DNA of 63,762 nt, filler included, from Coriobacteriales bacterium (lineage in GTDB: Bacteria; Actinomycetota; Coriobacteriia; Coriobacteriales; UBA8131): assembly GCA_031263105.1 (NCBI GenBank). It is 6 parts of 6 records of this genome, joined end to end, with 100 filler letters (N's around TTAATTAATTAA, not from the genome) between each part and the next. Parts side by side here need not be neighbours in the genome. Positions count along the whole stretch, not along the records: positions 1 to 19,586 come from JAISGJ010000047.1; 5 more parts are not named here. The stretch is one strand, 5' to 3'. Numbering within the stretch: the stretch's first letter is position 1; every line of letters starts with the position of its first letter. The notes below the pieces were generated by a model. The model had not been told where the DNA came from. It saw only the letters and a list, made by a program, of their open reading frames with translations, and ran no database searches. Positions 1 through 19,176 of this stretch are shown piece after piece. The position numbers and the translations under genes are program-made.

Positions 1-171
1 TTCGTCGCGACGAGTGGTGATTTACAAGGGTACGGTGAGCGGCTATACTGGAAAAGGTTTTTGTTCGAAAAATGTCAATTCAATGGTATGATATGCCTTT
101 GAGGTGGTATCATAAGGCCTTGGTGTGCGTGGAAGGTATGCGTGGACTGGGGCAGTAGCAGGGGGTACCGA

Positions 172-1095
172 GTGGGTTCATCTAACGATATAACGCCGCG
201 GCAGGATGACGCGCCACAGTCAGCGGACGTCGGTCGCCGCCCCTCTGGGTCCCCCGGGCAGAAGCCGACATCCGCACACCCCTCTTCCCAGATAACAACC
301 CGTGCCCGCCATGCCGCGAGCACCAGCGAGCCCCAACACGGCCGTCCTCGCGCCCGCCGCGCCAAGGCAGGCGCAGCCGGCACCGCTGCCAACAACGACT
401 CCCGCACCGGCAGCGGCGCAGGCACCAAGCCCACGTCCGCGCCGGCCTCCCTCCGCGCGGCCTTTACCCGCATGTCTCCGCGCACGCGAATCGTTGCCGC
501 TGCGCTCTCCCTCGTCCTGGTCGCCGCCGTGTCCACTGCCGCCATCGCAACGGCCCTCTCCACGCGGGACAGCCTGGCCGCGACCGGCCCCCTGACCGCC
601 GTCACGGTTTTTGCCCCTGGGGAGGAGATCGGCACGTCCGGCGACGAGGCCTCCGACCCCGCCGCCGTCGGCTCCGATCCCGCCACCGACCCCGCCCTCG
701 CCGACCCGGCCGACCCGGCCGCAACCGACCCCGCCGCCGACCCGGCCGCAACAGACCCCGACACCCCCGCCGACCCGGCCGACCCCGACCCCGCCGCCGA
801 CGACCCCGACGCCCGCGACCCCGATGCCCCCGTTCTCGACCTTGCGGACAGCGGATCGCAGGCAGCGGGCACGGACGTCCCCGAGCAGCTCGAGGACCAG
901 CTCAATGCGCTGGTCGAGGAGAAGCGTGAGGAGAAGGTCAAGACCCAGACGGAGTATGGCGACATCGAGAGCATGCTCGCCTACGTCACCGAGAACGGCA
1001 CGCAGGAGGAGATCGACCGCTACACGAACCTCCTGAACGAGTACGCGCAGAAGCTCACGAAGCTCGACGAGGACATCGAGCTGTACACGCAGTAG
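172..1095 (+). CDS. Hypothetical membrane-anchored protein: basic N-terminal region, one TM helix, Asp/Pro/Ala-rich linker, helical C-terminus
   Basis: ORF 142..1095. GTG at 172 follows AGGGGG. Hydrophobic stretch IVAAALSLVLVAAVSTAAIATAL; DPA/DPD repeats; host-like GC3 bias. Confidence 0.7.
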   Translation: MGSSNDITPRQDDAPQSADVGRRPSGSPGQKPTSAHPSSQITTRARHAASTSEPQHGRPRARRAKAGAAGTAANNDSRTGSGAGTKPTSAPASLRAAFTRMSPRTRIVAAALSLVLVAAVSTAAIATALSTRDSLAATGPLTAVTVFAPGEEIGTSGDEASDPAAVGSDPATDPALADPADPAATDPAADPAATDPDTPADPADPDPAADDPDARDPDAPVLDLADSGSQAAGTDVPEQLEDQLNALVEEKREEKVKTQTEYGDIESMLAYVTENGTQEEIDRYTNLLNEYAQKLTKLDEDIELYTQ

Positions 1096-1814
1096 AGTAT
1101 CCGGCTCCGAGGCCGGCCCTGTCGGCTTCGGAGCATTCTCAACGGCCCCTGCTTCAGGGGGCCGATAGCAGGACCCGGCTCCGGTACCAGGGGGCCGGCC
1201 GCACGACCCGGCTCCGGTACAAAGGGGCCGGCCGCACCACCCGGCTTCCCGGAGTCGGCCTCGACCCCAAACGGGGTCGGTGCCACCGCTTCGCCGGTAG
1301 CAACACCGCCCGGCACGTCGGCCCATGCCGACGCAAACCCTGGACCCGCCAACGCCAACCGGTAGGGGAGAGGGGGCCGGGGCCGGTGGAGCCCCCGGAA
1401 GTCGGCAACAGTGCCCAGCAGCGCCGGGATACCACCCTTCCCCCCCGGCAGTGTTGGGGTGTTACCCAGCAGCGCCGGGATTGCTCCTTTCTCCTTGGCC
1501 TGCTGGGCGGCGCCACCCAGCAGTGCCATCCATCCTCGTCACTGCTGGGGGAGCGCCACCCCTCCCGGTCTTGCTGGGGGCCGCTGTTGCCGCCCCCAGC
1601 GAGCCACCCCCTCCCAGCTCCGTCGGGAGCCGCTCCGGCGACTCCCGGCGGGGCCCCCCCGCGTTACCGCACCACCCCGCACCACCCCGCACCACCCGCA
1701 CCACCCGGCCCGCCCCAGCGGGCGGCCCGGCCACCGCATCGTCCGCATCACCCGGCCCCGGCCGGTAGCACTGCCCGGCGGCCCCTGGGGCCCGCAGAGG
1801 AAAAGGAGTGTCCC

Positions 1815-4800
1815 GTGTTACTCAAATCAAGGAGCGTCCTCGTAATCATCGCCCTCGCGCTGGTGGCTGCCATCGCGGGGACCGTCATCGTCCTCAACAC
1901 GGGCAAGACGGCCACCACCTTCCCGGAGGACGGCTACGTCTTTGCCGAGCCCCAGGAGGGCGAGGAGGGCGGCTACACGTCGCCGCAGATCCGCTTCAAG
2001 GCGGGCAGCGCCTACGAGAACAACTTTGAGCAGGACCTCGTCTTCACGGGTGAGGAGGGCCAGAAAGAGGCCCTTGCGGACTACGGCTTCGTCCATTACA
2101 CGAGCGGCGCGATCTCCACGCTGAAGCCCGGCGTCGTCATGAGCCTCTCCAACCTCGACAACGAGGGCTTCACGGGCTACTCGGTCACCCCCGCCAACGT
2201 CATCGAGAAGGCGGGCAACGGCTACGCGATCAGCCACTTCGACAGCAGCATCCCCTTCGAGTCCCTCGTCGTGAAGCTCAACGAGGGCCAGTACCTCTTC
2301 GCGGGCGCCAGCCTCGAGGTCAACCAGGGCGAGTCCGAGACGCCGGTGCCCAACGGCTTCGTCGAGGTCAACTACATCGACAACGGCGTCATCGAGATCG
2401 TCTCCGACGAGCAGACCATCCTCACGGTCGCCAACGACACGAGGCTCACGATCAACGACGACATCGTGGTGGACCTGAGCAAGCGGGAGATAGAATCGGG
2501 CGAGACGGGCCTGGGGCTCTCCCAGATCGTCGTGGACGGGACGGACAACATCGAGGTCACCGAGGTCGCTGCCAACGAGGTCACGGGCGTCAAGCTCCCC
2601 ACCTTCACGGTGATCGACGGCACGGACGGCTCGGCAGGCTCGGCGGGCACCTCCGGCACCTCGGGCACGGGCGGCGCGGACGGCGCCGAGGGCAGCTCCG
2701 GCGGCGGCGGCACGGCGGGCAGCGCCGGCCAGGCCGGCCAGGTGGGCGCGCCCGGCGCGGACGGCATCTACGGCGTCGACGGCGCCTCGGGTGCGGACGG
2801 CGCGGGCGGCACGGGCTACGAGGACCCTGACGACCCCGGCACGGGCGACGACCCGGGCGACACGCCCACCCCCGTCAAGCCGAACATCCCCAACTACGAG
2901 CTGCCGGTGTTCACGCTGGCCAGCTGGGACGTGACGGCCATCACGGCGCGCGGCAGCATCGCGCTCGACGACCAGGGCAAGGTCCAGCTCGACGGCGACC
3001 CCACGCTCACGATCCTCAACACGGCGACGGGCCAGCCGCTCACGGGCGTGACCTTCTCGCCGGGCGGCGACGGCTACATCGTCTCGACGGACAGCCTGGT
3101 GCCGGGGCAGTCCTACCAGCTCATCGTCGAGGGCAGCTACACGATAGACGGCATCTCCTACAACCGCCAGTTCCTCACGAAGAACTTCATCGCAGACAAC
3201 ATCGGCCTCTCGCTGCTCTACGACAGCGCGACGGACAGCGAGATAACCGTCAACGCCTACAAGGAGGCCTACTCATACGCCAAGAGCGTCAAGGTGAGCA
3301 TCTTCGACGTGAAGACCGGTCTGGAGGTGGGCTCGGACACGGTCTCCCTCGACGCGGGGGACAACCTGGTCACCTTCTACGGCCTCAACAACGTCGAGCA
3401 GTACCGCATCCAGATGAGCGACCTCGTCTACGAGACGGCGGAGGGCGACACGATCACCCAGCCGGTGGGCACGGCCTACGGGGACGCGGTCGTCGCCTCG
3501 ACCGTCCAGAACCTCACCTCCATCATGGTGGCGACCCCCAACTTCAACACGGACCGCACGGCCTCGACCTTCACGCTGTGGCCTGGCACGACCTCGGGCC
3601 TTGAGATGAACCGCATCCAGGCCTACCGCTACGAGTACTACCAAGGGGATCCCTCCGCGCCGGGAAGTGCACAGAACCAGCTTGTCTTCGATGCTAACGG
3701 CGTGGTAACGGGGATAAAACCGAACGAGACGGCCGTGAAGGTCGTCACGAGCAACACGCGCTCGGCCACGATCACCGACGTGAGTCCCGTCGCCCAGGCC
3801 GACAGGTCCAACCTCACGTGGAACACCCAGTACTATGCGCGCGTCGTCGTCGAGTACAGCGACGGCCAGTACCTCCACGACCTTGCGAGCCCCTTCACGA
3901 GCCTCATCCAGCTCACGGGCTCCAGCATGCCCCTCATCAAGTGGATGCCCATGTACCTGCCGGGCCAGTTGGTGGCCGCAGAGTACTACGATCGCGTGGT
4001 GGGCAACATCGAGGTCACGAAGAACGGCGCGACCGTCGAGCCGGGCCAGCCCTTCACCATCAAGTTCGAGAACACGGAGATTGACCATATCCTCGGGATA
4101 CCCGTCAACGGCAACCCGTCCGCGAGCGCGGACGCGAAGATGGAGATGAGCAACTTCGACGACACCACGGTGCTGAAGTTCGACATCATAGTCAACACGC
4201 CCAAGCTCGCGCAGGACGACCCCTACGTCATCAGCGTCTGGGGTTCGGTTGATCTCCATGACGGCAAGGGCTACCGCCTCATGTCCCTCGGCCGCATCCC
4301 TGTCAACACGACGGAATCCCAGGTGCTCGCCGTTGCCATGCAGGAGCTGGACTCCGCCGTCCCAGGCGAGATGTTCACCTTCAACACCTGGATGACGGAC
4401 GTCGCCAACGGGGCCGACGCGAGCTACGAGGGCAGCAACCTCGCGAAGGTCACCTACAAGCTCTACTCAGGCTACGGCGACCCCGACGTGGACACGCTGC
4501 TCGGCGAGTACACGGTCAACAGCACGACGGGCACCCAGGGCAAGCCCGAGATGAGCAGCCTCCCGGGCCCCTACTACAAGGGCGTCTACACGGACGACCT
4601 CAGCACCCTCACGGATCCCGACCCTGCCAAGCAGACGGCGCTTCGGACCCCGTGGCAGATCAGCAACAGCGACTTCTCGGTGACGAACGCCGAGCTTGCG
4701 AACCACCCTGTGGTGACGGTCGTGGTGGACAAGCACGAAGGTGCCGTGGACTACACCTCGGGCCTTGGCACCTCCAACATCTTCGTCAACAAGTTCGAGC

Positions 4801-7800
4801 TCCAAGACGCCGACCCTGCGAAGCAGGGCACGGCCCAAGAGCTCAAGCTCGAGCTGACCGTGGCACAGACGGCCCCCACCCCGCCCGAGAAGGGCAAGAA
4901 CGCCCTCACGACGGTCGTGCTCACGGAGGGCACAGCCAAAAACTACGTCCCCACCTATGCCATGCGCGAGGGCGTTGACCCCGACACGGTGGTGGGCTTC
5001 CAGATCAGGGCAGACTTCGCGGCACCGGAGCTGGCGCTCCAGGTGAACTACTACCTGCGCCAGAACAAGCTGCACTACACCCTCGCGGGCGAGGTGGACA
5101 ACCCCGTGGCGGACATCCAGGACCCCCTGCCCCACAGCGCGGCGACCTCGGAGCTCGTCGCGGGCAACGTCAACCAGATAGAGCTCTCCCCCACGGCTTC
5201 CGACCCCTCTGACAGGGAGAAGATCACGCTGCCCGTGCGCCGCAACGCACAGAACCAGGCGACGATTCCCACGCTCGTCCTCATGTTCGGCAAGGGCCTG
5301 GACATCCTGCCGGGGGACGGCGGCTCGGGCGACGCCACGGACACCACCACCTTCTACAAGTACCTCGCCAACGACGACACGTCACTCCCCTCGAATCCCA
5401 CCTTGGCAGAGCTCCTTGCGTCCGAGGCGCGCTGGCGCGGCTGGACCTACTACGCCACCTATACGGCCCTCCTCACCCTCACCCCTCCGGGCGGGGTCGT
5501 CGGCGACCCCTACCTCTATCCCTTCAACTTCGATGCCTCGGGCTGGCGGGCCGACTCTGCGGACGGCACCAACCCTGAGAACCTGCTCTACTCCCGGCGC
5601 ATGGTCGCCCGTAAGGTGGCGGCGGCCTTCGAGCGCTACGCCTCCGTCTCGGACGCAGGCTCCGAGACCTGGAAGTTCCGCCTGAAGGACCCCGACGGCG
5701 TGATCCCGGAGAGCTCGGCAGACAAGTTCGAGCTCACGGTGACGAGCGACCCCGAGGCCAGCCAGCCGGGCAGCCCCGTCGTCGGCACCGTCGAGGTGGG
5801 CATCCCCGCCGACGAGACCGCGTGGGAATCGATGGAGCTGCGGCCCGGCGCAGGCGTCGACCTCGTGGCGGACGCGACCTACAAGACCTCCTACCAGCAG
5901 AGCCTGTGGAACCCAGCCATCACCCAGAACATGGCCGGCCTCTCCACGGAGGCGACCCAGGAGTTCATGCCGCGCTACCACCAGCTGGTCATAGACGACG
6001 CCACGATGAAGGGCACCGGATATATCGGCGACGCCGGGACCGGAAACTGGGCGATCGTCTCGGACCTCTCGCGCAACGCCGTCTTCTTCACGCTGCACAG
6101 CCTCGGAGACAACACTACCGAGGGCCTCAAGAAGTTCAACCGCGTGGCGGCCCTGAAGGTGACGACGACAGGCTCCATAACCAGCACCCCCAAGACCTTC
6201 ATCGTGCCCTTTGTCAAGGACACCGTCAACAACGCCGAGGAGCCCTGCGTGTCGATAGGCTACGCGGCCCTTGCTGCCGCAGGCTATATCGGCGGCGAGA
6301 AGATCACGTGCAGCGTGGAGGTCGTCTTCGACACCGGCCTGCGCGGCCTTGGTCTGGGCACGGGCTTCGACGCCTTCGCCCTCCAGACGATAGGGGAGAA
6401 CAACGTGACCCCCAACGTCCCGGGCAAGTACTACCTCCTCAACGCAGGCGGCGACTTCCTGCCGCGCGGGCCCGCCAACGCGCCGAGCGGCCAGTACTAC
6501 GACACGGCCAACAGCGGCTTCACCCCCGGTGCGACCTTCAGGGCCATCGGCACCTTGGCCTATCAAAGCGTCGCCAACAGCGCCGACGGCCTGGCGCACA
6601 ACTCCACGCGGGCCCTGGCGGCAAGCGCCGACGGCCCGCGCCTCGGGGCGGAGTACCCGGCCTTCAAGGTCCTGGACACGGTGAAGCTCTCCCAGCACGC
6701 GACTTTGAGCGAAGACCAGTTCGACATGGAGACCGTGGTGCCCGAGGTGCGCAACGTGACCACGGCGACCGGCCTCACCGACGCCACGATACGCTTCGAC
6801 GTCTTCGGCGGCAACGCCCTCGACCAGGTGGACGGCCTGCTCGGGGACACCAACTATTCTAGCCCCGAGAATCACACGGGGGATGCCGACTACCCCGACC
6901 TCACCGCAGGCACCCTCGGCAGCCCCACGATCTTCACGGCCCCGGACACCTTCACGAAGCTGACCACCGCCGGGTACAACGGCAAGAGGTGGATCCTCGT
7001 CAACGTCACCAAGAGGAGGACGAACGGCACGACGCTTGACCGCGAGGTGGACGGCTCCCCCTTCCTGCTCGAATGGGTCAACCAGCCGGTCACGAACACC
7101 AACAGCTACACGCTCCCGCTCGCGAACCTCGACCAGGAGCGGACCTACCAGTTCACCATCAAGGGCGTGGTGACGGGCAAGGGCAATCCCGGCGACTTCT
7201 CGGGCAACACCGCAGTCGACGACGGCGGCGTCATCTCGCCCTTGCTCACCATCACGAGCCGCGCGGATATGTACTTCCTCGACCAGGCCATAGGGAGCAC
7301 GGGGCGCCGCTACACCTTCTCGACGAGCAAGGCGCTCGGCGTCGGCACGGTGGACAACCCCGTGAGGCTCACCTACACGGCCACCGACTACTACACCAAG
7401 AACCTGCGCATCGACTACGGCATCACCCAGGCAGGCTCCTTCCTCGTCGAGTACGTGTTCACGGACACCACGTCCGGCCTGACGAACGGCCAGACCTACA
7501 CCTACACGAGCCTGAAGAGCGTGCAGACGACCTCCATGACGGACACCATACCGCTGCCTCTGGGGATAGACGACGACATCAACGACGGCGATCCCCTGAC
7601 ACTGCCCAACAACCCCTTCTGGTACTATGACAACCACACCTACACGGTCGAGGTGGTGTTCCGGGACAAGGGCATCGTCGGCAACCCGGAGCTGGCGCGC
7701 TCGGCCGCCACGGCCTTCACGATGCGCAGGCTCAACGTGCCGCAGTTCGTCGTGGCTGCCACGCCTGACGAGAACAGCGCCGCCGTCACCTTCGCCATCT

Positions 7801-8567
7801 CCCCCATCGACAACGACAAGGTGGTCGTGGACGGCACGTACATGCTGCGCCTCATCAATGCTGCGGGCACGGACGTCACCTCGGGCATCACGATCGCCGC
7901 AGGCTCCGGCGCCTACTCGGGCCAGCTCCTGAGGGACGCGGCCTTCACCTTCAGCGACCTCAACAAGATCCAGACCATCGTGCTGCCGGAGGCCTCGGGC
8001 TACCCCGGGACGCCCGGCACCGACGGCCTGCTTCGAGGCACGGACTACTTCCTCCAGCTCTACGCGGTCAACGACATCGTCGATTCTTCGGTGCCACCTG
8101 GCACCTTTGGCAACACCGGCGCCCTGCCGAACGTCTTTGAGCTCTACGAGAACGGCGGCGGGGCCAACCCCAAGGTCGATGTGGGCGACCCGCTCTTCGA
8201 CGCCACCTTCCAGCGCACGCTGCGCGTCACCACCCTGGGTCCCGACATCGTGAGCTTTGGCGACGCGTGGACGCAGACCGCTGCGAACAACACCATCCGC
8301 GTGAACTTCGAGGGCGCGAAGAACCTCGGTCAGGCGACACAGGTCCGCTACACGGTCTACTCCAGCAACGCGTCCTTCACCTGGACCACGCCTGCCCCGA
8401 TCGCCTTCAACCGGCAGACGGACAACAGCGTCAGCCCCTCGATGGACTACGTCGTGCTCATGGAGCCCAACCTTGCCTCCAAGGGCCTGTACTACATCAC
8501 GATGCAGTTCTACGACGGCTCGGGCAACGCCAAGGGCGAGGTTTCGACGACCTACCGCTTCAGCTGA
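1815..8567 (+). CDS. Giant (~2250 aa) N-terminally anchored extracellular protein with a Gly-X-Y tract and probable beta-sandwich (FN3/Ig-like) domains
   Basis: ORF 1386..8567; GTG at 1815 follows AAGGAG (1803-1808). N-terminal TM VLVIIALALVAAIAGTVIVL; 22 Gly-X-Y triplets at 2619-2816; T/V/D/G-rich beta-type composition. Fold assignment is inference. Confidence 0.85.
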   Translation: MLLKSRSVLVIIALALVAAIAGTVIVLNTGKTATTFPEDGYVFAEPQEGEEGGYTSPQIRFKAGSAYENNFEQDLVFTGEEGQKEALADYGFVHYTSGAISTLKPGVVMSLSNLDNEGFTGYSVTPANVIEKAGNGYAISHFDSSIPFESLVVKLNEGQYLFAGASLEVNQGESETPVPNGFVEVNYIDNGVIEIVSDEQTILTVANDTRLTINDDIVVDLSKREIESGETGLGLSQIVVDGTDNIEVTEVAANEVTGVKLPTFTVIDGTDGSAGSAGTSGTSGTGGADGAEGSSGGGGTAGSAGQAGQVGAPGADGIYGVDGASGADGAGGTGYEDPDDPGTGDDPGDTPTPVKPNIPNYELPVFTLASWDVTAITARGSIALDDQGKVQLDGDPTLTILNTATGQPLTGVTFSPGGDGYIVSTDSLVPGQSYQLIVEGSYTIDGISYNRQFLTKNFIADNIGLSLLYDSATDSEITVNAYKEAYSYAKSVKVSIFDVKTGLEVGSDTVSLDAGDNLVTFYGLNNVEQYRIQMSDLVYETAEGDTITQPVGTAYGDAVVASTVQNLTSIMVATPNFNTDRTASTFTLWPGTTSGLEMNRIQAYRYEYYQGDPSAPGSAQNQLVFDANGVVTGIKPNETAVKVVTSNTRSATITDVSPVAQADRSNLTWNTQYYARVVVEYSDGQYLHDLASPFTSLIQLTGSSMPLIKWMPMYLPGQLVAAEYYDRVVGNIEVTKNGATVEPGQPFTIKFENTEIDHILGIPVNGNPSASADAKMEMSNFDDTTVLKFDIIVNTPKLAQDDPYVISVWGSVDLHDGKGYRLMSLGRIPVNTTESQVLAVAMQELDSAVPGEMFTFNTWMTDVANGADASYEGSNLAKVTYKLYSGYGDPDVDTLLGEYTVNSTTGTQGKPEMSSLPGPYYKGVYTDDLSTLTDPDPAKQTALRTPWQISNSDFSVTNAELANHPVVTVVVDKHEGAVDYTSGLGTSNIFVNKFELQDADPAKQGTAQELKLELTVAQTAPTPPEKGKNALTTVVLTEGTAKNYVPTYAMREGVDPDTVVGFQIRADFAAPELALQVNYYLRQNKLHYTLAGEVDNPVADIQDPLPHSAATSELVAGNVNQIELSPTASDPSDREKITLPVRRNAQNQATIPTLVLMFGKGLDILPGDGGSGDATDTTTFYKYLANDDTSLPSNPTLAELLASEARWRGWTYYATYTALLTLTPPGGVVGDPYLYPFNFDASGWRADSADGTNPENLLYSRRMVARKVAAAFERYASVSDAGSETWKFRLKDPDGVIPESSADKFELTVTSDPEASQPGSPVVGTVEVGIPADETAWESMELRPGAGVDLVADATYKTSYQQSLWNPAITQNMAGLSTEATQEFMPRYHQLVIDDATMKGTGYIGDAGTGNWAIVSDLSRNAVFFTLHSLGDNTTEGLKKFNRVAALKVTTTGSITSTPKTFIVPFVKDTVNNAEEPCVSIGYAALAAAGYIGGEKITCSVEVVFDTGLRGLGLGTGFDAFALQTIGENNVTPNVPGKYYLLNAGGDFLPRGPANAPSGQYYDTANSGFTPGATFRAIGTLAYQSVANSADGLAHNSTRALAASADGPRLGAEYPAFKVLDTVKLSQHATLSEDQFDMETVVPEVRNVTTATGLTDATIRFDVFGGNALDQVDGLLGDTNYSSPENHTGDADYPDLTAGTLGSPTIFTAPDTFTKLTTAGYNGKRWILVNVTKRRTNGTTLDREVDGSPFLLEWVNQPVTNTNSYTLPLANLDQERTYQFTIKGVVTGKGNPGDFSGNTAVDDGGVISPLLTITSRADMYFLDQAIGSTGRRYTFSTSKALGVGTVDNPVRLTYTATDYYTKNLRIDYGITQAGSFLVEYVFTDTTSGLTNGQTYTYTSLKSVQTTSMTDTIPLPLGIDDDINDGDPLTLPNNPFWYYDNHTYTVEVVFRDKGIVGNPELARSAATAFTMRRLNVPQFVVAATPDENSAAVTFAISPIDNDKVVVDGTYMLRLINAAGTDVTSGITIAAGSGAYSGQLLRDAAFTFSDLNKIQTIVLPEASGYPGTPGTDGLLRGTDYFLQLYAVNDIVDSSVPPGTFGNTGALPNVFELYENGGGANPKVDVGDPLFDATFQRTLRVTTLGPDIVSFGDAWTQTAANNTIRVNFEGAKNLGQATQVRYTVYSSNASFTWTTPAPIAFNRQTDNSVSPSMDYVVLMEPNLASKGLYYITMQFYDGSGNAKGEVSTTYRFS

Positions 8568-8586
8568 TAACGAAAGGGAAGCAACA

Positions 8587-10697
<2,111 letters not shown>

Positions 10698-10726
10698 GCC
10701 CGGCGGCGTATGAAAGGACAGGTGCC

Positions 10727-11512
10727 TTGGATACCATAGGCATATTCATCGCGGTCGTGGTGATACTCCTGGTGATGGACGGCTTCTTCTTCCTCGCCTT
10801 CCGTGGCATCGTCGCCACGGTGGGCCGCTTCGCGCAGAACAACGTGCTGCGCCAGGCGGGCATCCTGGACGAGCTGATCTACAAGAAGGAGGAGACGCTG
10901 CTGAACCTGCAGCACGAGCTCGACGAGCGGCAGGCCCGCGTCGACGAGTTCGACGAGCTGGCGGCCCCCACCCAGGGCCCGCGCACGGCCGCCCCCGACT
11001 ACCAGACGGTGTCCCAGGGCACGTACAAGGACGCCGACTTCGTGCGCGAGTACCGCGAGATACGCAGCAACTTCGTCTTCGACAGCGGCCAGGTGGCGCG
11101 CGAGACGCTCGAACGTCTCCCCACCGAGCGCGACCCCAGGGTCGCCGCCGCACGGCGCATACTCGACGAGGTGGACCTCGAGGTCACCTACGGCCTCATG
11201 ACGCTCTCGGGCGAGGAGCAGCAGACGCTGCTCGCCGAGCTCTTCGAGGGCGAGCAGAGGGCCCTGCTCGACGAGTACGCAGAGAGAAGCGGCTACTTCG
11301 AGATATACGACTTCCTGGGCTGGCTCAAGCAGTACGTCTTCGCCAACGACGTAGAGGTCAGCATCCGCACGAGCCGCCCCGGGGAGAACTTCGACAGTCT
11401 GGACGAGCGCGTCCAGACGAGCTATGACGATACGCTGTGCGAGGGCATCAGCATAGTGTCGGCGGGAAAGCTGTATGACTTTTCCATTCGGAACAGGGAG
11501 ATCATTGGATGA
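10727..11512 (+). CDS. Subunit b/delta-like fusion (peripheral stalk)
   Basis: TTG at 10727 after GAAAGGA. N-terminal TM, coiled coil (KKEETLLNLQHELDERQARVDEF), C-terminus SYDDTLCEGISIVSAGKLYDFSI resembling the delta/OSCP C-terminal DxxLxGGxxI..G...D.S pattern; located between c and alpha. Confidence 0.65.
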   Translation: MDTIGIFIAVVVILLVMDGFFFLAFRGIVATVGRFAQNNVLRQAGILDELIYKKEETLLNLQHELDERQARVDEFDELAAPTQGPRTAAPDYQTVSQGTYKDADFVREYREIRSNFVFDSGQVARETLERLPTERDPRVAAARRILDEVDLEVTYGLMTLSGEEQQTLLAELFEGEQRALLDEYAERSGYFEIYDFLGWLKQYVFANDVEVSIRTSRPGENFDSLDERVQTSYDDTLCEGISIVSAGKLYDFSIRNREIIG

Positions 11513-12828
11513 GTACGAAACTGAACGACTCCATCAGCGAGAAGGTCGCCGCCATCAAGGAGGGCAGGAACGTCTACCAGGTGGGCCGTGTCACGAGGAT
11601 GCGCAACTACATCATCGAGGTCTCAGGCCTTGAGGAGGCAGGCTACTTCGAGCGCGTCACGGTCGCGGACAAGGCCGAGGGCTACGTCAGCCGCATCGGC
11701 AAGTACACCGTGACCATCGAGCTGGTGAAGGTCAACGGCCCCATCCATGTGGGCGACGAGGTGATAGCGACGGGCAAGCCCTTCGGCGCCTGGTTCTCGC
11801 CCGACTCCATCGGCAAGGTGGTGGACATGTTCGCGGAGGACAAGCTCACGGGCCTCATGTTCAAGGACCGCCAGCCCATCCCCGCCGTCGCCCCTCCCAT
11901 CCCCATCATCGACCGCACACAGGTCAACCGCCCGCTGTACACGGGCCTCGCGAGCATCGACCTCATGTACCCCATAGGGCGCGGCCAGCGCCAGCTCATC
12001 CTGGGCGACAAGAAGACGGGCAAGACCCAGATAGCCCTCGACGCCATCGCCAACCAGAAGGGCCAGGGCGTCATCTGCCTGTACGTGGCGCTCGGCAAGA
12101 CGAAGAAGGCCGTCAAGGAGATCTACGCCGAGCTCATGTCCCGTGGCGTCATGGACTACACCATCGTCCTCGCCGCTTTCCAGGACGACGGCGCGCCGGC
12201 CCTCTACATGACGCCGCAGGTGGGCGCCTCCATCGCGAACATCTACATGCGCCAGGGCTCCGACGTGCTCATGGTGCTCGACGACCTCACGCTCCACGCG
12301 AACATCTACCGCGAGATCAGCCTGCTCGTCGGCAAGGTGCCCGGCCGCGACGCCTACCCGCCGGACATCTTCTTCGTGCACGCGAGCCTGCTCGAGCAGG
12401 GCTGCCAGCACAAGGACGGCGGCTCGATCACCATCCTTCCCATCGCGGAGACGCGCGGCGGCGACATCACGGACTACATCACGACGAACATCATATCCAT
12501 CACGGACGGGCAGATCGTGCTCTCGGCCAAGGAGTTCGAGAAGGGCCAGAAGCCGGCCATCAACTTCGGCCTCTCCGTCTCGCGCCTCGGCGGCCAGGTC
12601 CAGGACAAGAGCCTCAAGCAGATAGGCGCCGACATCCGCCGCGAGCTGCTCTCCTACCTGGAGCGCCGCGAGGTCTTCGAGCTTGCGAACATCGACGAGA
12701 TGAGCGTCGAGATGCGCACGCAGATCATACGCGGCCGCGAGATACTCAAGCGCATGAACCAGTACAAGTTCACGCCGCTTGCGCCCGACGACATGCCCCC
12801 GCGCTTCGCGGACCTCGTGGGGGCCTGA
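11509..12828 (+). CDS. atpA: F1 ATPase alpha subunit, divergent and C-terminally shortened (439 aa)
   Basis: PIGRGQRQLILGDKKTGKT, PGRDAYPPD, TNIISITDGQI, arginine-finger motif GLSVSRLG. Confidence 0.95.
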   Translation: MSTKLNDSISEKVAAIKEGRNVYQVGRVTRMRNYIIEVSGLEEAGYFERVTVADKAEGYVSRIGKYTVTIELVKVNGPIHVGDEVIATGKPFGAWFSPDSIGKVVDMFAEDKLTGLMFKDRQPIPAVAPPIPIIDRTQVNRPLYTGLASIDLMYPIGRGQRQLILGDKKTGKTQIALDAIANQKGQGVICLYVALGKTKKAVKEIYAELMSRGVMDYTIVLAAFQDDGAPALYMTPQVGASIANIYMRQGSDVLMVLDDLTLHANIYREISLLVGKVPGRDAYPPDIFFVHASLLEQGCQHKDGGSITILPIAETRGGDITDYITTNIISITDGQIVLSAKEFEKGQKPAINFGLSVSRLGGQVQDKSLKQIGADIRRELLSYLERREVFELANIDEMSVEMRTQIIRGREILKRMNQYKFTPLAPDDMPPRFADLVGA

Positions 12829-12830
12829 GC

Positions 12831-14974
<2,144 letters not shown>

Positions 14975-14983
14975 GCGCCCCCC

Positions 14984-15412
14984 ATGGCCCAGACGACCAT
15001 AGCACCGCCGCGTGACGCGGCCCTCGACCCCAACGCACCGTCCTCACAGGTGCGCGAGTACCTTGCATCCAGCACCAGCAGGATACAGGTGCAGATATCG
15101 TCGTTCGCCGAGGGCCTGCAGGTGATCCGCGACGTCTCCATCGTGCGCGTGCGCGGCAGGGAGTCGCGCCTGCTCATCATGGAGGACTACATGCCCATCA
15201 TCGGCGAGATCGACGGGGCCATCGACGTCATAGGCAAGGACTTCTACCAGACCTTCGAGCCCATCCAGGGCTTCTTCTGCCACGAGCACAACGTCTTCTT
15301 CCTCCTGCTGCGCGAGCAGCAGATACGCGGCGACGGCAAGCTCCTCATCTCCCGCGACCCCGACGTAGCCGCCGCCGACATCGAAACCGTAGCCGCCTTG
15401 GAGCGTGACTAG
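14984..15412 (+). CDS. atpC: Epsilon-like subunit (N-terminal beta-sandwich only)
   Basis: Directly follows beta. Pattern IQVQISS...VSIVRVRG...LLIMEDYMPII...GFFCHEHNVFFLL parallels the epsilon beta-domain; no obvious C-terminal helical hairpin. Confidence 0.6.
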   Translation: MAQTTIAPPRDAALDPNAPSSQVREYLASSTSRIQVQISSFAEGLQVIRDVSIVRVRGRESRLLIMEDYMPIIGEIDGAIDVIGKDFYQTFEPIQGFFCHEHNVFFLLLREQQIRGDGKLLISRDPDVAAADIETVAALERD

Positions 15413-15520
15413 ATGCCTGCGGCTGCAAACTACCGTCGCGCACTGCGTGCGCTCTCTATGCAGTCGGGCGCTGCCGCGCCCGACAGGCACTCACTGTCTG
15501 CCGCGCCCGACAGGCACTCA

Positions 15521-15702
15521 CTGTCATTCCGAGCGGAGGGGCGAAGCCCCGCAGCCGAGGAATCTTCGACCGCGCCAGCGGTCGACCGTGGCCGAAAGGC
15601 GCTTCTGCCTGCGATCGGCTGCCCCGCAGCCGAGGATTCCTCGGCTGCGGGGCTTCGCCCCGGAGCCTGTCCTGAGCGCAGCCGAAGGACTCGGAATGAC
15701 AG
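15521..15702. repeat. Palindromic MITE/REP-family element
   Basis: Ends CTGTCATTCCGAG...CTCGGAATGACAG with inner GAGGAATC/GATTCCTC arms; immediately after the ATPase operon. Confidence 0.85.
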
Positions 15703-15792
15703 GAATGACAGAAAGGAAGAGCTGCCACAAGCAGCCGAGCAGGCGGACAGATAGACGAACAGACAGACTGCGTTTCAGGAAGAAGGAACGAT

Positions 15793-16380
15793 ATGGCTCC
15801 CCTTGACAACCTGGCATCCAGCAAGGTGCCCGACCATCGATTCAAAGAACTCGCCCAACGCATCGCGGGACTCCGCGACGCCTGTGGCTACTCCCTCGAG
15901 GAATTCGCCGACAAGCTGGGCGTGAGCCGCGAGGCCTATCGCGCCTATGAGGAAACGGGGTTCGACGTCCCGGCAAGCCTGCTCATGCATATTGCCCACG
16001 TCTGCAACGTAGACATGGCCGTCCTTCTCACCGGCGGTTCCACCCATTTGGACACCTATCAGGTCGTGCGTGCAGGCAAGGGGCAGGTCGTCGACCGCTT
16101 CCCGGGCTATCACTTCCAGGACCTCGCCTACGCCTATACCGGCAAGGTCATGCAGCCGCTCCTCGTCACGCTGGATCCCGGCGACGAGGCCGCAGGACTC
16201 GTTGCCCACGCAGGCCAGGAGTTCAACTACGTGACGCAGGGCACGGTGATCCTCGTGTTCGCCGACCGCGAGATCGAGCTGAATGTGGGCGACAGCGTCT
16301 ACTTCAACCCCCAGATCCCGCATGGCCAGCGCTGCGGTTCGGATGGGCCGGCGGTATTCGTGACCATGATCACAGAATGA
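15793..16380 (+). CDS. XRE-family HTH / cupin transcriptional regulator
   Basis: HTH (SLEEFADKLGVSREAYRAYE) plus cupin motifs HAGQEFNYV and GDSVYFNPQIPHG. Confidence 0.9.
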   Translation: MAPLDNLASSKVPDHRFKELAQRIAGLRDACGYSLEEFADKLGVSREAYRAYEETGFDVPASLLMHIAHVCNVDMAVLLTGGSTHLDTYQVVRAGKGQVVDRFPGYHFQDLAYAYTGKVMQPLLVTLDPGDEAAGLVAHAGQEFNYVTQGTVILVFADREIELNVGDSVYFNPQIPHGQRCGSDGPAVFVTMITE

Positions 16381-16437
16381 CCCCCACCACGGCACAGTCC
16401 CGGCACAGCCCCGCCGACCCTCTGCAAAGGAAGTAGC

Positions 16438-18228
16438 ATGAACCATATTCTCAAACAGTATTGCCCTCGCATCGACTTCACGTCCTATGAGGACTTCTTC
16501 GAGAACTTCAGGATAGACGTGCCCGCAGACTTCAACTTCGCCTATGACGTCGTCGACGAGTGGGCGCGCGTCGAGCCGGACAAGAGGGCGCTCGTCTGGT
16601 GCGACGACGCGGACGACGAGCGCATCCTCACATTCACCGACGTCTCGCGGCTTTCTGACCGGCTCGCCAACGCACTGTGGGACATCGGCCTTCGCAAGGG
16701 CGACATCGTCATGGTCGCCCTGCGTCAACGCTGGGAATACTGGGTCACAGCGACGGCGCTCTGCAAGCTAGGGGCGATCGTTATCCCTGCGACGACCCAG
16801 CTCACACAAAAAGACATCGTCTACCGCCTCAACGCCTCCGGCGCCAAAGCCGTCATCGCCCTGGACGACGAGTACGTGCGTGCACAGATGGAGCTCGCCC
16901 TCCCCTCCTGCCCCGAGATCGAGTGGCGGATACTCGTGAACGGAACGCCCGCCGAGGGGGCTGCCGCTGCTGGGGCGCCCGCCGTCGAAGGCTCTGGGGA
17001 GAACATCGGGGGAGACGCCGCCGGAACGTCCGCCGGGGGAAGCGCCCGCCCAGAAACCGACGGCTGGCTCTCCTTCGAGCGGATGCTCGCGGGTGCCTCC
17101 GAGGACTGGACCCGTCCCACGGGCGAGGCGGCAACGCGCAACGACGACATCATGCTCATCTACTTCACTTCCGGCACCACGGGGCCGGCCAAGATGTGCG
17201 AGCACAACTTCGTGCATCCTCTCGGGCACATCATCACCGCAAAGTACTGGCAGCAGGTTCAGGAGAACAGGCTGCATTGCAGCGTGAGCGACAGCGGCTG
17301 GGCGAAGTTCGGCTGGGGCAAGATATACGGCCAGTGGATCGCAGGGGCGACGGTCTTCGCCTATGACGCAATCCGCTTCAACCCGCTTGAGCTGCTCAGG
17401 CGCATCGAACGCTACCAGGTGTGCACCTTCTGCGTGCCGCCGACGATGTACCGCTTCATGCTGCAGGAGGATCTCTCCTCCATCGACCTGAGCAGCGTCG
17501 AGAACTACACGACCGCCGGCGAGCCGCTCAATGCCGACGTCACCAAACGCTGGTACGAGACGACCGGCAAGATGATACGGGAGGGCTTCGGGCAGTCGGA
17601 GGGGCCGGTGCTTCTCGCCACCTTCCCCTGGGTCGAGCCGCGCCCCGGCTCCATGGGCAGGCCCTCGCCCCTGCTCAACATCCAGCTGCTCGATGCCGAG
17701 GGCGCACCCGTCGCGGACGGCGACGAGGGGAGCATCTGCGTCACCCGCCTCAAGGAGGCCTACCCGCCAGGGCTCTTCGTCGGCTACTACCGCAACCCCG
17801 AAGCCACCGAGACGGCCGTCGGCGGCACCCACTACGACCTGCACGACGTCGCCTGGCGCGACCCCGACGGCTACTACACCTTCGTGGGGCGCAACGACGA
17901 CGTCATCAAGTGCTCCGGGTATCGCATCGGACCCTTCGAGGTGGAGAGCGCGCTCGTCGCCCATCCCGCCGTCCTCGAATGCGCCGTCACCGCCGCCCCC
18001 GACGAGGTGCGCGGCAGCGTGGTGAAGGCGAGCATCGTGCTCGCACGCGGCCTCACGCCCTCCGACGCCCTGGCCCACGAGCTCCAGGAGCACGTGAAAA
18101 CCACCACGGCCCCCTACAAGTACCCGCGCATCGTCGAGTTCGTCGACGAACTCCCCAAGACCATCGGCGGCAAAATAAAGCGCGCCCAGATCCGCACCCT
18201 CGACGAAGGCGGCTCCTGGGAGGAGTGA
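16438..18228 (+). CDS. AMP-forming acyl-CoA synthetase
   Basis: YFTSGTTGPAK, EGFGQSE, GRNDDVIKCSGYRIGPFEVES, LPKTIGGKI. Confidence 0.93.
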   Translation: MNHILKQYCPRIDFTSYEDFFENFRIDVPADFNFAYDVVDEWARVEPDKRALVWCDDADDERILTFTDVSRLSDRLANALWDIGLRKGDIVMVALRQRWEYWVTATALCKLGAIVIPATTQLTQKDIVYRLNASGAKAVIALDDEYVRAQMELALPSCPEIEWRILVNGTPAEGAAAAGAPAVEGSGENIGGDAAGTSAGGSARPETDGWLSFERMLAGASEDWTRPTGEAATRNDDIMLIYFTSGTTGPAKMCEHNFVHPLGHIITAKYWQQVQENRLHCSVSDSGWAKFGWGKIYGQWIAGATVFAYDAIRFNPLELLRRIERYQVCTFCVPPTMYRFMLQEDLSSIDLSSVENYTTAGEPLNADVTKRWYETTGKMIREGFGQSEGPVLLATFPWVEPRPGSMGRPSPLLNIQLLDAEGAPVADGDEGSICVTRLKEAYPPGLFVGYYRNPEATETAVGGTHYDLHDVAWRDPDGYYTFVGRNDDVIKCSGYRIGPFEVESALVAHPAVLECAVTAAPDEVRGSVVKASIVLARGLTPSDALAHELQEHVKTTTAPYKYPRIVEFVDELPKTIGGKIKRAQIRTLDEGGSWEE

Positions 18229-18492
18229 GGCGAAGCAGGAGCGAGCAGGTTTGGTTAGGGCATAGGTGCTGCGGCAACGACCATGCCGCGTGGCCGCTGT
18301 CAGGTTACTATCACACCCACTGTCATTCCGAGCCCCGCGAGGAATCTTCAGCGCAAAAACCACCGTCCCCTTTGCGCTGTCTTTGCGCTCATAGTGACGC
18401 CCGCCCTGCTTCGCCGGACGGGCTGCTCGGCGGCTTCGCCGCCGTCAGTTCAGTAGGAGGACACAGCAGGAGGACACAGAGGGACAGACCGA

Positions 18493-18570
18493 CACAGAGG
18501 GACGGTTCTTTTGTGCAGCCGGATTGCCCTCGACTCTCTTTCGGTAGCACAAAAGAACCGTCCCTCTGTG
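18493..18570. repeat. Perfect 24-bp inverted repeat with 30-bp spacer
   Basis: CACAGAGGGACGGTTCTTTTGTGC (18493-18516) / GCACAAAAGAACCGTCCCTCTGTG (18547-18570). Confidence 0.9.
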
Positions 18571-18724
18571 CGTCCACCGAAACCCTGTCAAGGCCGAGAT
18601 CTGCGCGGCAGCGGGAGGCTGCCCGTGGAGCAGCTGTCCCGCCTACCTTGGAAAGGGAGGCGACCTGGTGGAGACCGGCTTCCTGCTCTCCCTCCGAGGA
18701 CGACGACAGGGCGCTTGGGCTGTT

Positions 18725-18979
18725 TCAGGAACTCATGGACGAGTACGGCGACGTATTGCCCATACTATGAGTAGTCGGACCACGCGCTCCTTCGCTGTCG
18801 TCGCTGTAGCCCTTAGCATGCTCATACATTCCAATCGACAGCTTAGGATTTTGTCGATCGTCTTGATCGGCATACGCTGCCGTCGGCACCGACACCATCG
18901 TAACCACCATTGCGATGGCCACTATTGTTGCCACACACAGCTTGAACAGTCGCCTGCTCGTGGTTGATGACACCACCAT
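18725..18979 (-). CDS. Short putative secreted protein or 5' gene remnant
   Basis: Signal-peptide-like N-terminus (SRRLFKLCVATIVAIAMVVTMVSVPTAAYA) followed by only ~47 aa. Confidence 0.35.
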   Translation of the reverse strand: MVVSSTTSRRLFKLCVATIVAIAMVVTMVSVPTAAYADQDDRQNPKLSIGMYEHAKGYSDDSEGARGPTTHSMGNTSPYSSMSS

Positions 18980-19176
18980 AGCTATCACTTCTTTCTTTTG
19001 AACGAGCTTCGGTGACAACCACCGACAGTTTATGTCGATTTCGGCACTGAGGTTTTGCAATGGGGCAGCCATTGTCAAAAAGTGTACCTTCTGACAGTGC
19101 GCTGGTGCTCCTCAGGCAGCGCCTGGCTATATAATGGCAGAGTCGCATTTCCCAAGCCGAGCGAATCGAGGAGACC

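What the first reader, a model, noticed from the sequence alone, without database searches (positions are those of the whole stretch)
1815..15412. Atypical rotary ATPase operon: no subunit a, giant surface proteins in its place
Seen: eight co-oriented genes with gaps of 74 nt or less, or overlaps, in the order giant protein, 597-aa protein, c, b/delta, alpha, gamma, beta, epsilon. No multi-TM ORF resembling subunit a occurs from the window start to the end of this contig. Established: canonical order is atp(I)BEFHAGDC, and ion flow needs subunit a plus the c carboxylate. N-ATPases (order atpDCQRBEFAG) keep subunit a. Mycoplasma F1-like X0 clusters have no recognised c subunit. This locus matches none of these. 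Inference: an ATP-driven rotary or ring machine uncoupled from ion transport, serving the extracellular proteins (export or assembly through a c-ring, or mechanical actuation of an adhesin/appendage). I cannot confirm it is undescribed without a search.
Basis: partly seen in the sequence, partly recalled or inferred. Interest (0 to 1): 0.95.

Follow-up and report, generated by a model that had tools for sequence, protein, structure and literature searches.

The report
ATP motor wired to surface giants
This gene cluster looks like an ATP synthase rebuilt as an ATP-burning rotary motor: its membrane ring cannot carry ions, and its genes always sit beside genes for giant cell-surface proteins, a design so far described only, in a different form, in mycoplasmas.

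Summary
The eight co-oriented genes are real. They are a 2250-aa and a 597-aa single-pass surface protein, a c-subunit homologue, a b-delta fusion stalk, alpha, gamma, beta and a short epsilon-like protein. The contig (window 1-19586) has no subunit a.

- The c subunit has no helix-2 carboxylate. This held in 80 of 80 family members.
- The cluster belongs to a large conserved family in gut Bacillota and Actinomycetota: 53 genome loci, 69 metagenome loci, and 608 clusters (50% identity) of the stalk protein.

Alpha and beta form their own clade, apart from canonical and Mycoplasma Type 3 subunits. Four of ten carrier genomes also hold a full canonical F1Fo operon. The other six show no subunit a and no other rotary ATPase.

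In relatives, epsilon is almost always followed by a 4-5-helix membrane protein, a 250-aa anchor protein and a second giant. This window lacks all three. Homology ends at a high-copy palindromic repeat, so the locus is either truncated or mis-joined.

Best reading: an ion-uncoupled, ATP-driven rotary actuator of surface proteins. It is a new variant of the Mycoplasma "F1-like X0" idea. Five literature searches found no description. The scan had noted the same system twice on other DNA.

The parts
1815..8567 (+). Giant surface protein (2250 aa). It has a short basic N-terminus, one N-terminal TM helix (N-in), a juxtamembrane module of about 240 aa, 22 uninterrupted G-X-Y triplets from residue 269, and then a long variable part with no Pfam family.
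   Evidence: (collagen-like hits below cut-offs). G-X-Y count. N-terminal 300 aa related by profile to the other anchor proteins of the family (probability 87-93%). tblastn relatives in 26 of 53 loci at 20-36% identity.
8587..10380 (+). 597-aa surface protein. It has an N-terminal TM helix, a conserved juxtamembrane module of about 230 aa, 24 Gly-rich G-X-Y (GGX) triplets, and a variable distal part with a Pro/Ala/Glu-rich tail.
   Evidence: no family; relatives in 34 of 53 loci; the conserved part is residues 2-270; 10 of 27 orthologues have 8 or more G-X-Y triplets at the same place.
10455..10697 (+). c-subunit homologue (80 aa hairpin) with the cytoplasmic GRNPETK loop but no Asp/Glu in helix 2. 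Thr stands in the canonical carboxylate column. The C-terminal FFNP motif is conserved.
   Evidence: PF00137 at 33 bits. All NCBIfam c models are below cut-off. Family alignment; alignment with canonical c subunits. Counts of 50/50 and 30/30 without D/E in helix 2.
10727..11512 (+). b-delta fusion peripheral-stalk protein. It has an N-terminal TM helix continuous with a long helix (to about residue 85 of the 270-aa model), a disordered linker, a helical bundle and a small beta domain of delta/OSCP type.
11509..12828 (+). Alpha-like non-catalytic subunit (439 aa). Walker A is GDKKTGKT and the Arg-finger motif SVSRLG is present. Its C-terminus is about 55 residues shorter than in canonical alpha.
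   Evidence: (best atpA model 405 bits against a 554 cut-off), and 87 (87 versus 142 residues after the Arg finger; Arg finger in 48/48 family members).
12831..13622 (+). Gamma-like central shaft (263 aa).
   Evidence: PF00231 at 65 bits. The TIGR01146 score of 34 bits is far below its cut-off. 35-65% identity across the family.
13619..14974 (+). Beta-like catalytic subunit (451 aa) with Walker A GGAGVGKT, the GER..E catalytic motif and a DELSEED motif.
   Evidence: atpD 449.7 bits against a 462.85 cut-off; own clade.
14984..15412 (+). Short epsilon-like protein. The conserved core is about 90 aa from about 15050, and the tail after 15332 is not conserved. It probably holds only the beta-sandwich, without the C-terminal helical hairpin.
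   Evidence: Position after beta in 54 of 55 loci. The only PDB profile hit is mitochondrial delta (the bacterial epsilon homologue) at E 0.3. 2 of 31 members hit PF02823, best E 0.0026. A colinear but non-significant hhalign match.
15440..15710 (.). Palindromic repeat element at the downstream boundary of the cluster. This is where relatives continue with three more genes.
   Evidence: Inverted repeats. The depth bin over the repeat (15318-15668) reads 648, against about 23-37 in most ATPase-gene bins, and no listed contig piece bridges 15208-16556. DNA homology with L001 ends at 15332.

Best explanation
The window holds the first eight genes of a conserved module of about eleven genes. The module encodes an F1-like rotary ATPase that no longer works as an ion pump or ATP synthase.

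Alpha3-beta3 hydrolyses ATP; the catalytic motifs are intact. Gamma and the short epsilon-like protein turn a ring of c subunits that has no ion-binding carboxylate. A b-delta fusion protein anchors the head to the membrane as a stator.

The membrane and outer face of this motor are shared with single-pass proteins. Each has a very short cytoplasmic tail, one TM helix, a related juxtamembrane module of about 230 aa and, often, a collagen-like Gly-X-Y stalk. There are two such proteins here. Relatives have four, plus a 4-5-helix membrane protein.

Torque or a conformational cycle of the ring is therefore spent on moving, tensioning or resetting giant surface fibrils (adhesion, release, or gliding-type movement). 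This resembles what Mycoplasma Type 2 and Type 3 F1-like ATPases are proposed to do.

Shown: the gene content, the missing carboxylate, the missing subunit a, the conserved linkage, the separate clade and the delta/OSCP fold of the stalk. Inferred: assembly, rotation, and what the surface proteins do.

In this contig the module stops after epsilon at a repeat. Here it is either truncated or the assembly is mis-joined.
For: Family and synteny.
- 53 of 80 genome loci carry a beta at 55-79% identity with the same gene order.
- In 69 metagenome family loci, c was found in 41, the stalk protein in 42, alpha in 44 and gamma in 44 of the 44 loci that reach far enough upstream. Epsilon was found in 54 of the 55 that reach far enough downstream.
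- The 53 genome loci hold 51 ORFs of 1200 aa or more.

Ion-blind ring.
- No D/E in helix 2 in 50/50 (genome set plus window) and 30/30 (metagenome set) c subunits. Two more with a GRNPG loop also have none.
- Canonical c subunits from the same genomes keep the Glu.
- c is nevertheless 49-86% identical to the window's c across the family.

No subunit a: for this contig. PF00119 is absent from 6 of 10 carrier genomes, which also hold no second alpha/beta pair. It is present only inside a separate canonical operon in the other 4.

Catalysis kept: beta Walker A in 52/53 and alpha Arg finger in 48/48.

Own clade: 31/31 atypical betas form one branch (SH-aLRT 96), apart from 20 canonical and 12 Type 3 betas. 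The alphas show the same three groups.

Stator: AF2 model with pLDDT 88.5, and the top 42 Foldseek hits are all delta/OSCP or b-delta chains.

Shared anchor module: pairwise profile probabilities of 87-93% among the N-terminal 300 aa of the four anchored proteins.

Precedent: the Type 3 F1-like X0 ATPase is needed for the MIB-MIP surface system, and Type 2 drives gliding (PMC12994834, sections 6, 8 and 12 read).
Against: - No experiment exists and no RNA data were available.
- The window lacks the 4-5-TM protein, the 250-aa protein and the second giant, which follow epsilon in 53 (54 counting one by position) of 55 metagenome loci. The machine may be incomplete here.
- The epsilon assignment is weak: E 0.3 and 2 of 31 members.
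- The profile similarity among anchor modules includes the TM helix, and the giant-1 alignment had only 4 sequences.
- Six carrier genomes have this as their only rotary ATPase, which leaves room for a housekeeping role.
- No sequence relation was detected between the membrane parts here and those of Type 3, so the analogy is functional only.
Confidence: 0.6

Rival explanations
1. Export or assembly machine. The F1-like head, homologous to FliI/FliJ/FliH of type III export, would energise secretion, unfolding or wall passage of the giant proteins rather than move them after assembly.
Against: The module keeps gamma, a DELSEED-bearing beta and a c ring, which are the torque path of F-ATPases. 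No export-gate homologue (FlhA/FlhB type) was seen in the loci. The surface proteins have ordinary N-terminal signal-anchor helices suited to Sec. The FliI-family scores are 225 bits or less, against cut-offs of about 380 to 700.
Confidence: 0.12
2. An unconventional but genuine ion-translocating ATPase. The 4-5-TM protein of relatives would replace subunit a, and ions would bind somewhere other than the classical helix-2 site. This would serve pH or ion homeostasis, above all in the small genomes that have no other rotary ATPase.
For: 6 of 10 carrier genomes show no other F/V-type pair and no PF00119. A multi-TM protein follows epsilon in 53 of 55 loci. Many of these proteins carry an acidic residue in the fourth helix.
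Against: No D/E anywhere in c helix 2 in 80/80. Helix 1 of the window's c subunit has no mid-helix Glu or Gln (read from the translation; not tallied across the family). The 4-5-TM protein has no conserved Arg, and its acidic residue is not conserved. hhalign against subunit a gives probability 0.1%. Its model is a generic four-helix bundle with no significant match. This reading does not explain the fixed linkage to giant surface proteins. The MAGs may be incomplete.
Confidence: 0.07
3. In this particular genome the cluster is a truncated, possibly non-functional remnant, or the contig is chimeric at the repeat and the missing three genes lie elsewhere.
For: tblastn finds none of the three downstream genes in the 63.7 kb. 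Homology to the closest relatives stops at 15332, and a palindromic element follows. The depth bin over that element reads 648, against about 23-37 in most ATPase-gene bins, and no listed contig piece bridges 15208-16556. 53-54 of 55 relatives have the 5-TM gene right after epsilon.
Against: All eight genes are intact with conserved motifs, which argues against long-standing decay. Depth on both sides of the repeat is of the same order (records at 22-28 versus 26-36), as expected for one genome.
Confidence: 0.15

Closest known systems
Mycoplasma Type 3 'F1-like X0' ATPase (MSC_0618/0619 family; the MIB-MIP partner)
   Same: An extra alpha/beta/gamma/epsilon-like set outside the housekeeping operon. 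It has no subunit a, is genetically tied to surface proteins, and is proposed to turn ATP hydrolysis into work across the membrane (PMC12994834; sections 6, 8 and 12 read).
   Different: Type 3 has seven genes with a 12-TM protein, a small cytoplasmic protein and a large protein with two C-terminal TM helices. It has no c subunit and no b-delta stalk, as seen in four of the five fetched loci (L097-L100; L096 differed). The window scores below its NCBIfam cut-offs (383 < 570 and 288 < 520). The betas form separate clades. No profile similarity was found between the membrane parts (a low-sensitivity test). Type 3 is restricted to Mollicutes in the papers I read.
Mycoplasma mobile Type 2 G1-ATPase (gliding motor; PDB 9io5)
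   Same: An F1-like head thought to drive giant surface 'leg' proteins. The beta and alpha are about as distant as from canonical F1 (325 and 266 bits).
   Different: G1 beta has a long N-terminal extension and forms twin motors in chains, and no c ring is described (PMC11864180, passages only). The NCBIfam cut-offs are missed by far (382 < 850 and 376 < 600). No Type 2 sequence was in my trees.
Canonical bacterial F1Fo ATP synthase
   Same: The order c, b/delta, alpha, gamma, beta, epsilon. A c hairpin with the RNPE loop. DELSEED, Walker A and Arg-finger motifs. A delta/OSCP fold at the top of the stalk.
   Different: No subunit a, no c carboxylate, b and delta fused, alpha about 55 residues shorter at the C-terminus, and epsilon reduced to about 90 aa. 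Alpha and beta fall in a separate clade, and surface-protein genes sit inside the operon.
N-ATPase (alternate F1Fo; atpDCQRBEFAG)
   Same: A second F-type set beside the main one, with no separate delta gene.
   Different: N-ATPases keep subunit a and an ion-binding c and add AtpQ/AtpR. The gene order differs. The NCBIfam models are missed (410 < 752, 333 < 750 and 15 < 131). No N-ATPase sequence was in my trees.
Mycobacterial b-delta fusion subunit (e.g. PDB 7nkq chain d)
   Same: One polypeptide with an N-terminal TM helix, a long stalk helix and a delta/OSCP domain. It is among the structural matches.
   Different: The mycobacterial protein is about 440 aa and part of a normal proton-driven synthase. 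Sequence identity is 13-20%.

Membership tests
Canonical F-type ATP synthase (F1Fo) | Subunit a (PF00119) encoded with the complex | tested here: not met
   No tblastn hit with three canonical a subunits in the window. No + strand ORF with 2 or more TM helices other than c in the contig. PF00119 is absent from 6 of 10 carrier genomes and lies only in a separate operon in the other 4.
Canonical F-type ATP synthase (F1Fo) | Ion-binding Asp/Glu in the middle of c-subunit helix 2 | tested here: not met
   Thr in that column here, and A/T/S/V/L across the family. No D/E in helix 2 in 50/50 and 30/30.
Canonical F-type ATP synthase (F1Fo) | Alpha and beta reach the NCBIfam equivalog cut-offs and group with canonical subunits | tested here: not met
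   atpD 449.7 < 462.85. atpA models 405 < 554 and 357 < 484. Separate clade with SH-aLRT 96, and one branch in 84% of 200 bootstrap trees in the mixture-model run.
Canonical F-type ATP synthase (F1Fo) | Catalytic core motifs (beta Walker A, GER..E, alpha Arg finger) and a gamma shaft | tested here: met
Canonical F-type ATP synthase (F1Fo) | Peripheral stalk with a delta/OSCP domain | tested here: met
   here it is fused to a b-like TM helix.
N-ATPase | Order atpDCQRBEFAG with AtpQ/AtpR and subunit a, and the TIGR03305/03324/03322 cut-offs | tested here: not met
   Different gene order and no a. Scores 410 < 752, 333 < 750 and 15 < 131.
Mycoplasma Type 3 F1-like X0 ATPase | MSC_0618 beta and MSC_0619 alpha family membership | tested here: not met
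   383 < 570 and 288 < 520. The 12 Type 3 betas form their own clade with support 100.
Mycoplasma Type 3 F1-like X0 ATPase | Seven-gene set with a 12-TM protein, a small cytoplasmic protein and a large protein with two C-terminal TM helices, and no c subunit | tested here: not met
   That architecture was seen in fetched Type 3 loci L097-L100. It is absent here, where a c subunit and a b-delta stalk are present instead. hhalign probabilities between the parts are 0.1-0.3% (sensitivity is low).
Mycoplasma Type 2 G1-ATPase | MMOB1670/MMOB1660 family membership and the N-terminal extension of beta | tested here: not met
   382 < 850 and 376 < 600. The window's beta is 451 aa and aligns to residues 312-754 of the 784-aa G1 beta.
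FliI/SctN type III export ATPase | Family cut-offs, and homo-hexamer genes without an alpha/beta pair | tested here: not met
   The best score is 225 bits, against cut-offs of about 380 and above. A distinct alpha/beta pair and a gamma are present.
F-ATPase epsilon subunit (PF02823) | N-terminal beta-sandwich that binds gamma and the c ring | tested here: inconclusive
   The only PDB profile hit is mitochondrial delta at E 0.3. 2 of 31 members hit PF02823. hhalign gives 81 colinear columns but probability 0.5%.

The most novel reading that the evidence does not exclude
A fourth, undescribed class of F1-derived rotary motor is widespread in gut Bacillota and Actinomycetota. In it, a carboxylate-free c ring acts purely as a mechanical rotor or clutch. 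The ring is held by a b-delta stator and a four-helix-bundle membrane protein. It drives trimeric, collagen-stalked giant surface fibrils through a shared juxtamembrane anchor module. This would be an ATP-powered surface organelle for adhesion cycling or wall-associated movement in Gram-positive bacteria, and it may share an ancestor with the mycoplasma Type 2/3 machines.
Probability: 0.3. Interest if true: 0.95.

Novelty: new variant of a known kind. Interest (0 to 1): 0.8.

Why it matters
Rotary ATPases are textbook ion-coupled machines. The only known cases where an F1 head does other work are the mycoplasma Type 2 and Type 3 systems, and the 2012 paper that defined them called them without equivalent in other bacteria.

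This family would show that the co-option is not a mollicute oddity. It is a common design in gut anaerobes, including a cultured Bifidobacterium. It also keeps a c ring stripped of its ion site, which offers a clean natural experiment on what a c ring can do besides carry ions.

The family ties hundreds of unannotated 'hypothetical' proteins and giant surface proteins of gut bacteria to one machine. It also names testable predictions: DCCD-insensitive ATPase activity, no ion pumping, and co-purification with the surface proteins.

Tried and rejected
- Own-genome searches: no genome is held for this window.
- 4-5-TM protein or c ring versus the Type 3 12-TM protein, and the stalk protein versus the Type 3 small or large proteins: probabilities 0.1-0.3%. 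The same test gave only 3.6% for canonical epsilon versus Type 3 epsilon, so it is insensitive.
- Direct BLASTP of the giant's N-terminus against the 597-aa protein: nothing. Only the profile comparison showed a relation.
- PHROGs gave only collagen-like tail-fibre hits on the G-X-Y stretch.
- PDB profile search with the stalk alignment gave nothing relevant.
- Deep branching among the atypical, canonical and Type 3 betas is unresolved. It is an open trifurcation under LG+G4. Atypical plus Type 3 are sister groups (SH-aLRT 98) in a quick mixture-model tree. That pairing was not recovered in the finished careful run. I claim no sister group.
- The trees used 30 of 53 atypical loci plus the window, 20 of 30 canonical loci and 12 of 12 Type 3 loci. 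There were no Type 2 or N-ATPase sequences.
- No RNA holder was listed for the stretch, so co-transcription is untested. The promoter/terminator scan found no promoter-like site on either strand and no terminator-like site on the + strand (three on the - strand), which proves little.
- Junction check: Logan contigs are too short, and no piece bridges 15208-16556. An exact-match scan of metagenome contigs for the epsilon 3' end found nothing. The metagenome scan with beta found no relative above 75% identity.
- Literature: five searches and passages of five papers turned up no description of this family. Supplements were not opened.
Full report
**What is in the window.** The region 1815-15412 holds eight + strand genes separated by at most 74 nt or overlapping by 4 nt. 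Pfam and NCBIfam recognise a c subunit (PF00137, 33 bits), alpha and beta (PF00006), and gamma (PF00231). Every curated NCBIfam cut-off is missed. This includes canonical atpA/atpD, the alternate N-ATPase, the Mycoplasma MSC_0618/0619 (Type 3) models, the MMOB1660/1670 (Type 2) models and FliI/SctN.

The two upstream genes encode a 2250-aa and a 597-aa protein. Each has a short basic N-terminus, one TM helix, roughly 230-240 residues, and then an uninterrupted run of G-X-Y triplets (22 and 24 triplets). A long part with no known family follows.

The public protein collection holds the stalk protein on a contig of 19586 nt, and blocks of N begin at 19587. Window 1-19586 is therefore one whole contig. 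That contig has no subunit a. tblastn with three canonical a subunits finds nothing in the whole window. The only + strand ORF with two or more hydrophobic helices is the c gene.

**The unnamed parts.** The 270-aa translation between c and alpha was folded with 30 relatives (AF2, mean pLDDT 88.5). The model shows:
- one helix from residue 3 to 85 (TM plus stalk);
- a disordered linker;
- a helical bundle at 112-216;
- a small beta domain.

The last gene is less certain. Its conserved core of about 90 aa gives a single PDB profile hit, to mitochondrial delta (the epsilon homologue), at E 0.3. Two of 31 members touch PF02823. hhalign aligns 81 columns colinearly with canonical epsilon, but without significance. 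It is probably an epsilon reduced to its beta-sandwich.

**The c subunit cannot bind ions in the known way.** Aligned with canonical c subunits taken from the same carrier genomes, the column of the essential Glu holds Thr in the window and Ala, Thr, Ser, Val or Leu in relatives. No Asp or Glu occurs anywhere in helix 2 in 50 of 50 sequences of the genome set (window included) or in 30 of 30 of the metagenome set. Two further sequences with a GRNPG loop also have none. The protein is nevertheless 49-86% identical to the window's c subunit across the family. It keeps the cytoplasmic GRNPETK loop and an invariant outer FFNP motif. The ring is therefore conserved for something other than ion carriage.

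**A large family, not a one-off.** A scan of one genome per species returned 80 loci. Fifty-three carry a beta at 55-79% identity with the same neighbours. They come from Coriobacteriales, Bifidobacterium colobi, Lachnospiraceae, Erysipelotrichaceae and small-genome 'Bacilli/Mollicutes'-labelled MAGs. The other 27 loci, at 42-47% identity, are canonical operons.

A second scan of metagenome contigs gave 69 family loci:
- Of the 44 that reach far enough upstream, c was found in 41, the stalk protein in 42, and alpha and gamma in all 44.
- Of the 55 that reach far enough downstream, the epsilon-like gene was found in 54.

A profile of the stalk protein finds 608 representatives of 50%-identity clusters (490 at E 1e-10 or better). 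All named hits are 'hypothetical protein' without Pfam domains. The window's own DNA is held by runs labelled termite gut metagenome.

**Relation to other rotary ATPases.** In a tree of 73 rows, the 31 atypical betas, 20 canonical betas and 12 Type 3 betas each form one branch (SH-aLRT 96, 99 and 100). The 10 alphas used as outgroup split into the same three groups. With a mixture model on 40 rows, the window always stays inside the atypical group (one branch in 84% of 200 bootstrap trees). The order of the three groups is unstable, however. They are sister to Type 3 in a quick tree (SH-aLRT 98) and unresolved in the finished run.

I used subsets: 30 of 53 atypical, 20 of 30 canonical and all 12 Type 3 loci. 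No Type 2 or N-ATPase sequences were included. By score, PDB canonical betas (up to 383 bits) and the M. mobile G1 beta (325 bits) are similarly distant.

Catalytic motifs are kept. Beta Walker A is present in 52 of 53, GER..E in 44 of 53, and the alpha Arg finger in 48 of 48. Alpha is about 55 residues shorter at its C-terminus.

In four of ten carrier genomes a complete canonical operon lies elsewhere, with subunit a next to its own alpha and beta and a Glu-bearing c. In the other six (1.2-1.6 Mb) there is no PF00119 match and no second F- or V-type pair. The atypical set therefore neither borrows a subunit a nor is simply the cell's synthase with a stray a gene. MAG incompleteness limits the strength of the second point.

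In relatives the epsilon-like gene is followed by three more genes:
- a poorly conserved 4-5-TM protein of about 180-280 aa;
- a protein of about 250 aa with one N-terminal TM helix;
- a second giant of 2300-2800 aa.

The multi-TM gene was found by BLAST in 53 of 55 metagenome loci with enough downstream DNA, and in one more by position. In some Lachnospiraceae it is fused to the 250-aa protein.

It is not a detectable subunit a. It has no conserved Arg. hhalign probability is 0.1%. The Foldseek match is not significant. The VIA wide search gives only generic four-helix-bundle matches.

The N-terminal 300 residues of the 597-aa protein, both giants and the 250-aa protein are related by profile (probabilities 87-93%, P 3e-7 to 4e-6). 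The giant-1 alignment had only four sequences, and the TM helix contributes to the score. G-X-Y runs recur at the same distance from the membrane in 10 of 27 orthologues of the 597-aa protein, and in a few giants.

**This window lacks those three genes.** tblastn finds none of them in the 63.7 kb. DNA homology with the nearest relative runs from 11400 to 15332 and then stops. From about 15440 to 15710 lies a palindromic element. After it come an XRE-cupin regulator and an acyl-CoA synthetase.

In the run that holds the window, the depth bin over that element reads 648, against about 23-37 in most ATPase-gene bins. No listed contig piece bridges 15208-16556. The locus is therefore either a real truncation at a repeat or an assembly join through it. 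I could not decide which.

**Mechanism.**
- Shown: an intact F1-type catalytic core and shaft, a delta-type stator anchored by one TM helix, a conserved c hairpin without an ion site, no subunit a, and an invariant genetic link to single-pass surface proteins that share a module just outside the membrane.
- Inferred: ATP hydrolysis turns gamma, epsilon and the ring against the stator. Because no ion path exists, the work goes into the proteins that share the membrane and its outer face with the ring.

The tails of the anchored proteins are only 6-12 residues long. Any coupling must therefore occur in the membrane or just outside it. The ring's conserved FFNP rim and the shared modules are candidate contacts (inference).

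The closest precedent is the Mycoplasma Type 3 ATPase, which is needed for the MIB-MIP surface system. The Type 2 gliding motor is a second precedent (PMC12994834: abstract and sections 6, 8 and 12 read; PMC11864180: passages). Those systems have different membrane parts and no c subunit.

**Novelty.** Béven et al. [quoted passage not shown] Five full-text searches found no description of this family. Passages of a 2026 preprint on rotary ATPase evolution and of a 2014 survey did not describe it either. Supplements were not opened.

Two earlier notes of this scan, on other genomes, describe the same system: the ion-blind c ring, and a shared anchor module in two of three proteins. I re-tested both claims here. 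The first holds. The second holds, and in my profiles it extends to the 597-aa protein, which that note had found unrelated.

**Verdict.** This is a real and conserved F1-derived machine, probably uncoupled from ions and tied to giant surface proteins. It is a new variant of the F1-like motor idea. In this contig it is seen in an incomplete form.

Noticed in passing
window 15440-15710: A palindromic element lies right after the cluster. Its inverted repeats are 15521-15533/15690-15702 and 15538-15574/15625-15661, with a 27-nt tandem duplication at 15471-15524. The depth bin over it (15318-15668) reads 648, against about 23-37 in most ATPase-gene bins, in the run that holds the window, so it is a high-copy repeat in that community or genome. 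Its core occurs only here in the window.
   Followed up: partly
window 19587-19686, 41334-41433, 48421-48520, 54245-54344, 60919-61018: There are five places with two blocks of 44 N separated by 12 bases. The first coincides with the end of a 19586-nt contig, so the window is probably several contigs laid end to end.
   Followed up: partly
loci L030, L032, L033, L037, L038, L041-L047; L024, L029: Gene order varies within the family. In one subgroup gamma sits after epsilon and the 4-5-TM gene, and the 250-aa protein sits before c. In L024 and L029 the c gene precedes the giant. The parts are the same.
   Followed up: no
loci L004-L008: The 4-5-TM protein and the 250-aa anchor protein are fused into one protein of about 410 aa. 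This argues that the two act together.
   Followed up: no
genomes G005, G306-G310 (loci L024, L020, L021, L029, L036, L016): These small genomes (1.2-1.6 Mb) show the atypical alpha/beta pair as their only F/V-type pair and no subunit a. They may have no ion-translocating rotary ATPase at all, if the assemblies are complete.
   Followed up: partly
window 142-1095 (+): An upstream ORF of 317 aa has one hydrophobic helix, a Pro/Asp/Ala-rich stretch and a C-terminal coiled-coil-like segment. It has no Pfam or PHROGs family. Whether it belongs to the system could not be checked, because related loci do not reach that far upstream.
   Followed up: partly
locus L001: The record is labelled Eubacteriales Family XIII, yet its ATPase genes are the window's nearest relatives (beta 79-80% identical) and group with Coriobacteriales loci. 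This could be a binning label or a recent transfer. The family as a whole crosses Bacillota and Actinomycetota.
   Followed up: no
window 15793-18228: An XRE-type HTH plus cupin regulator and an AMP-binding acyl-CoA synthetase follow the repeat. They are unrelated to the cluster.
   Followed up: yes
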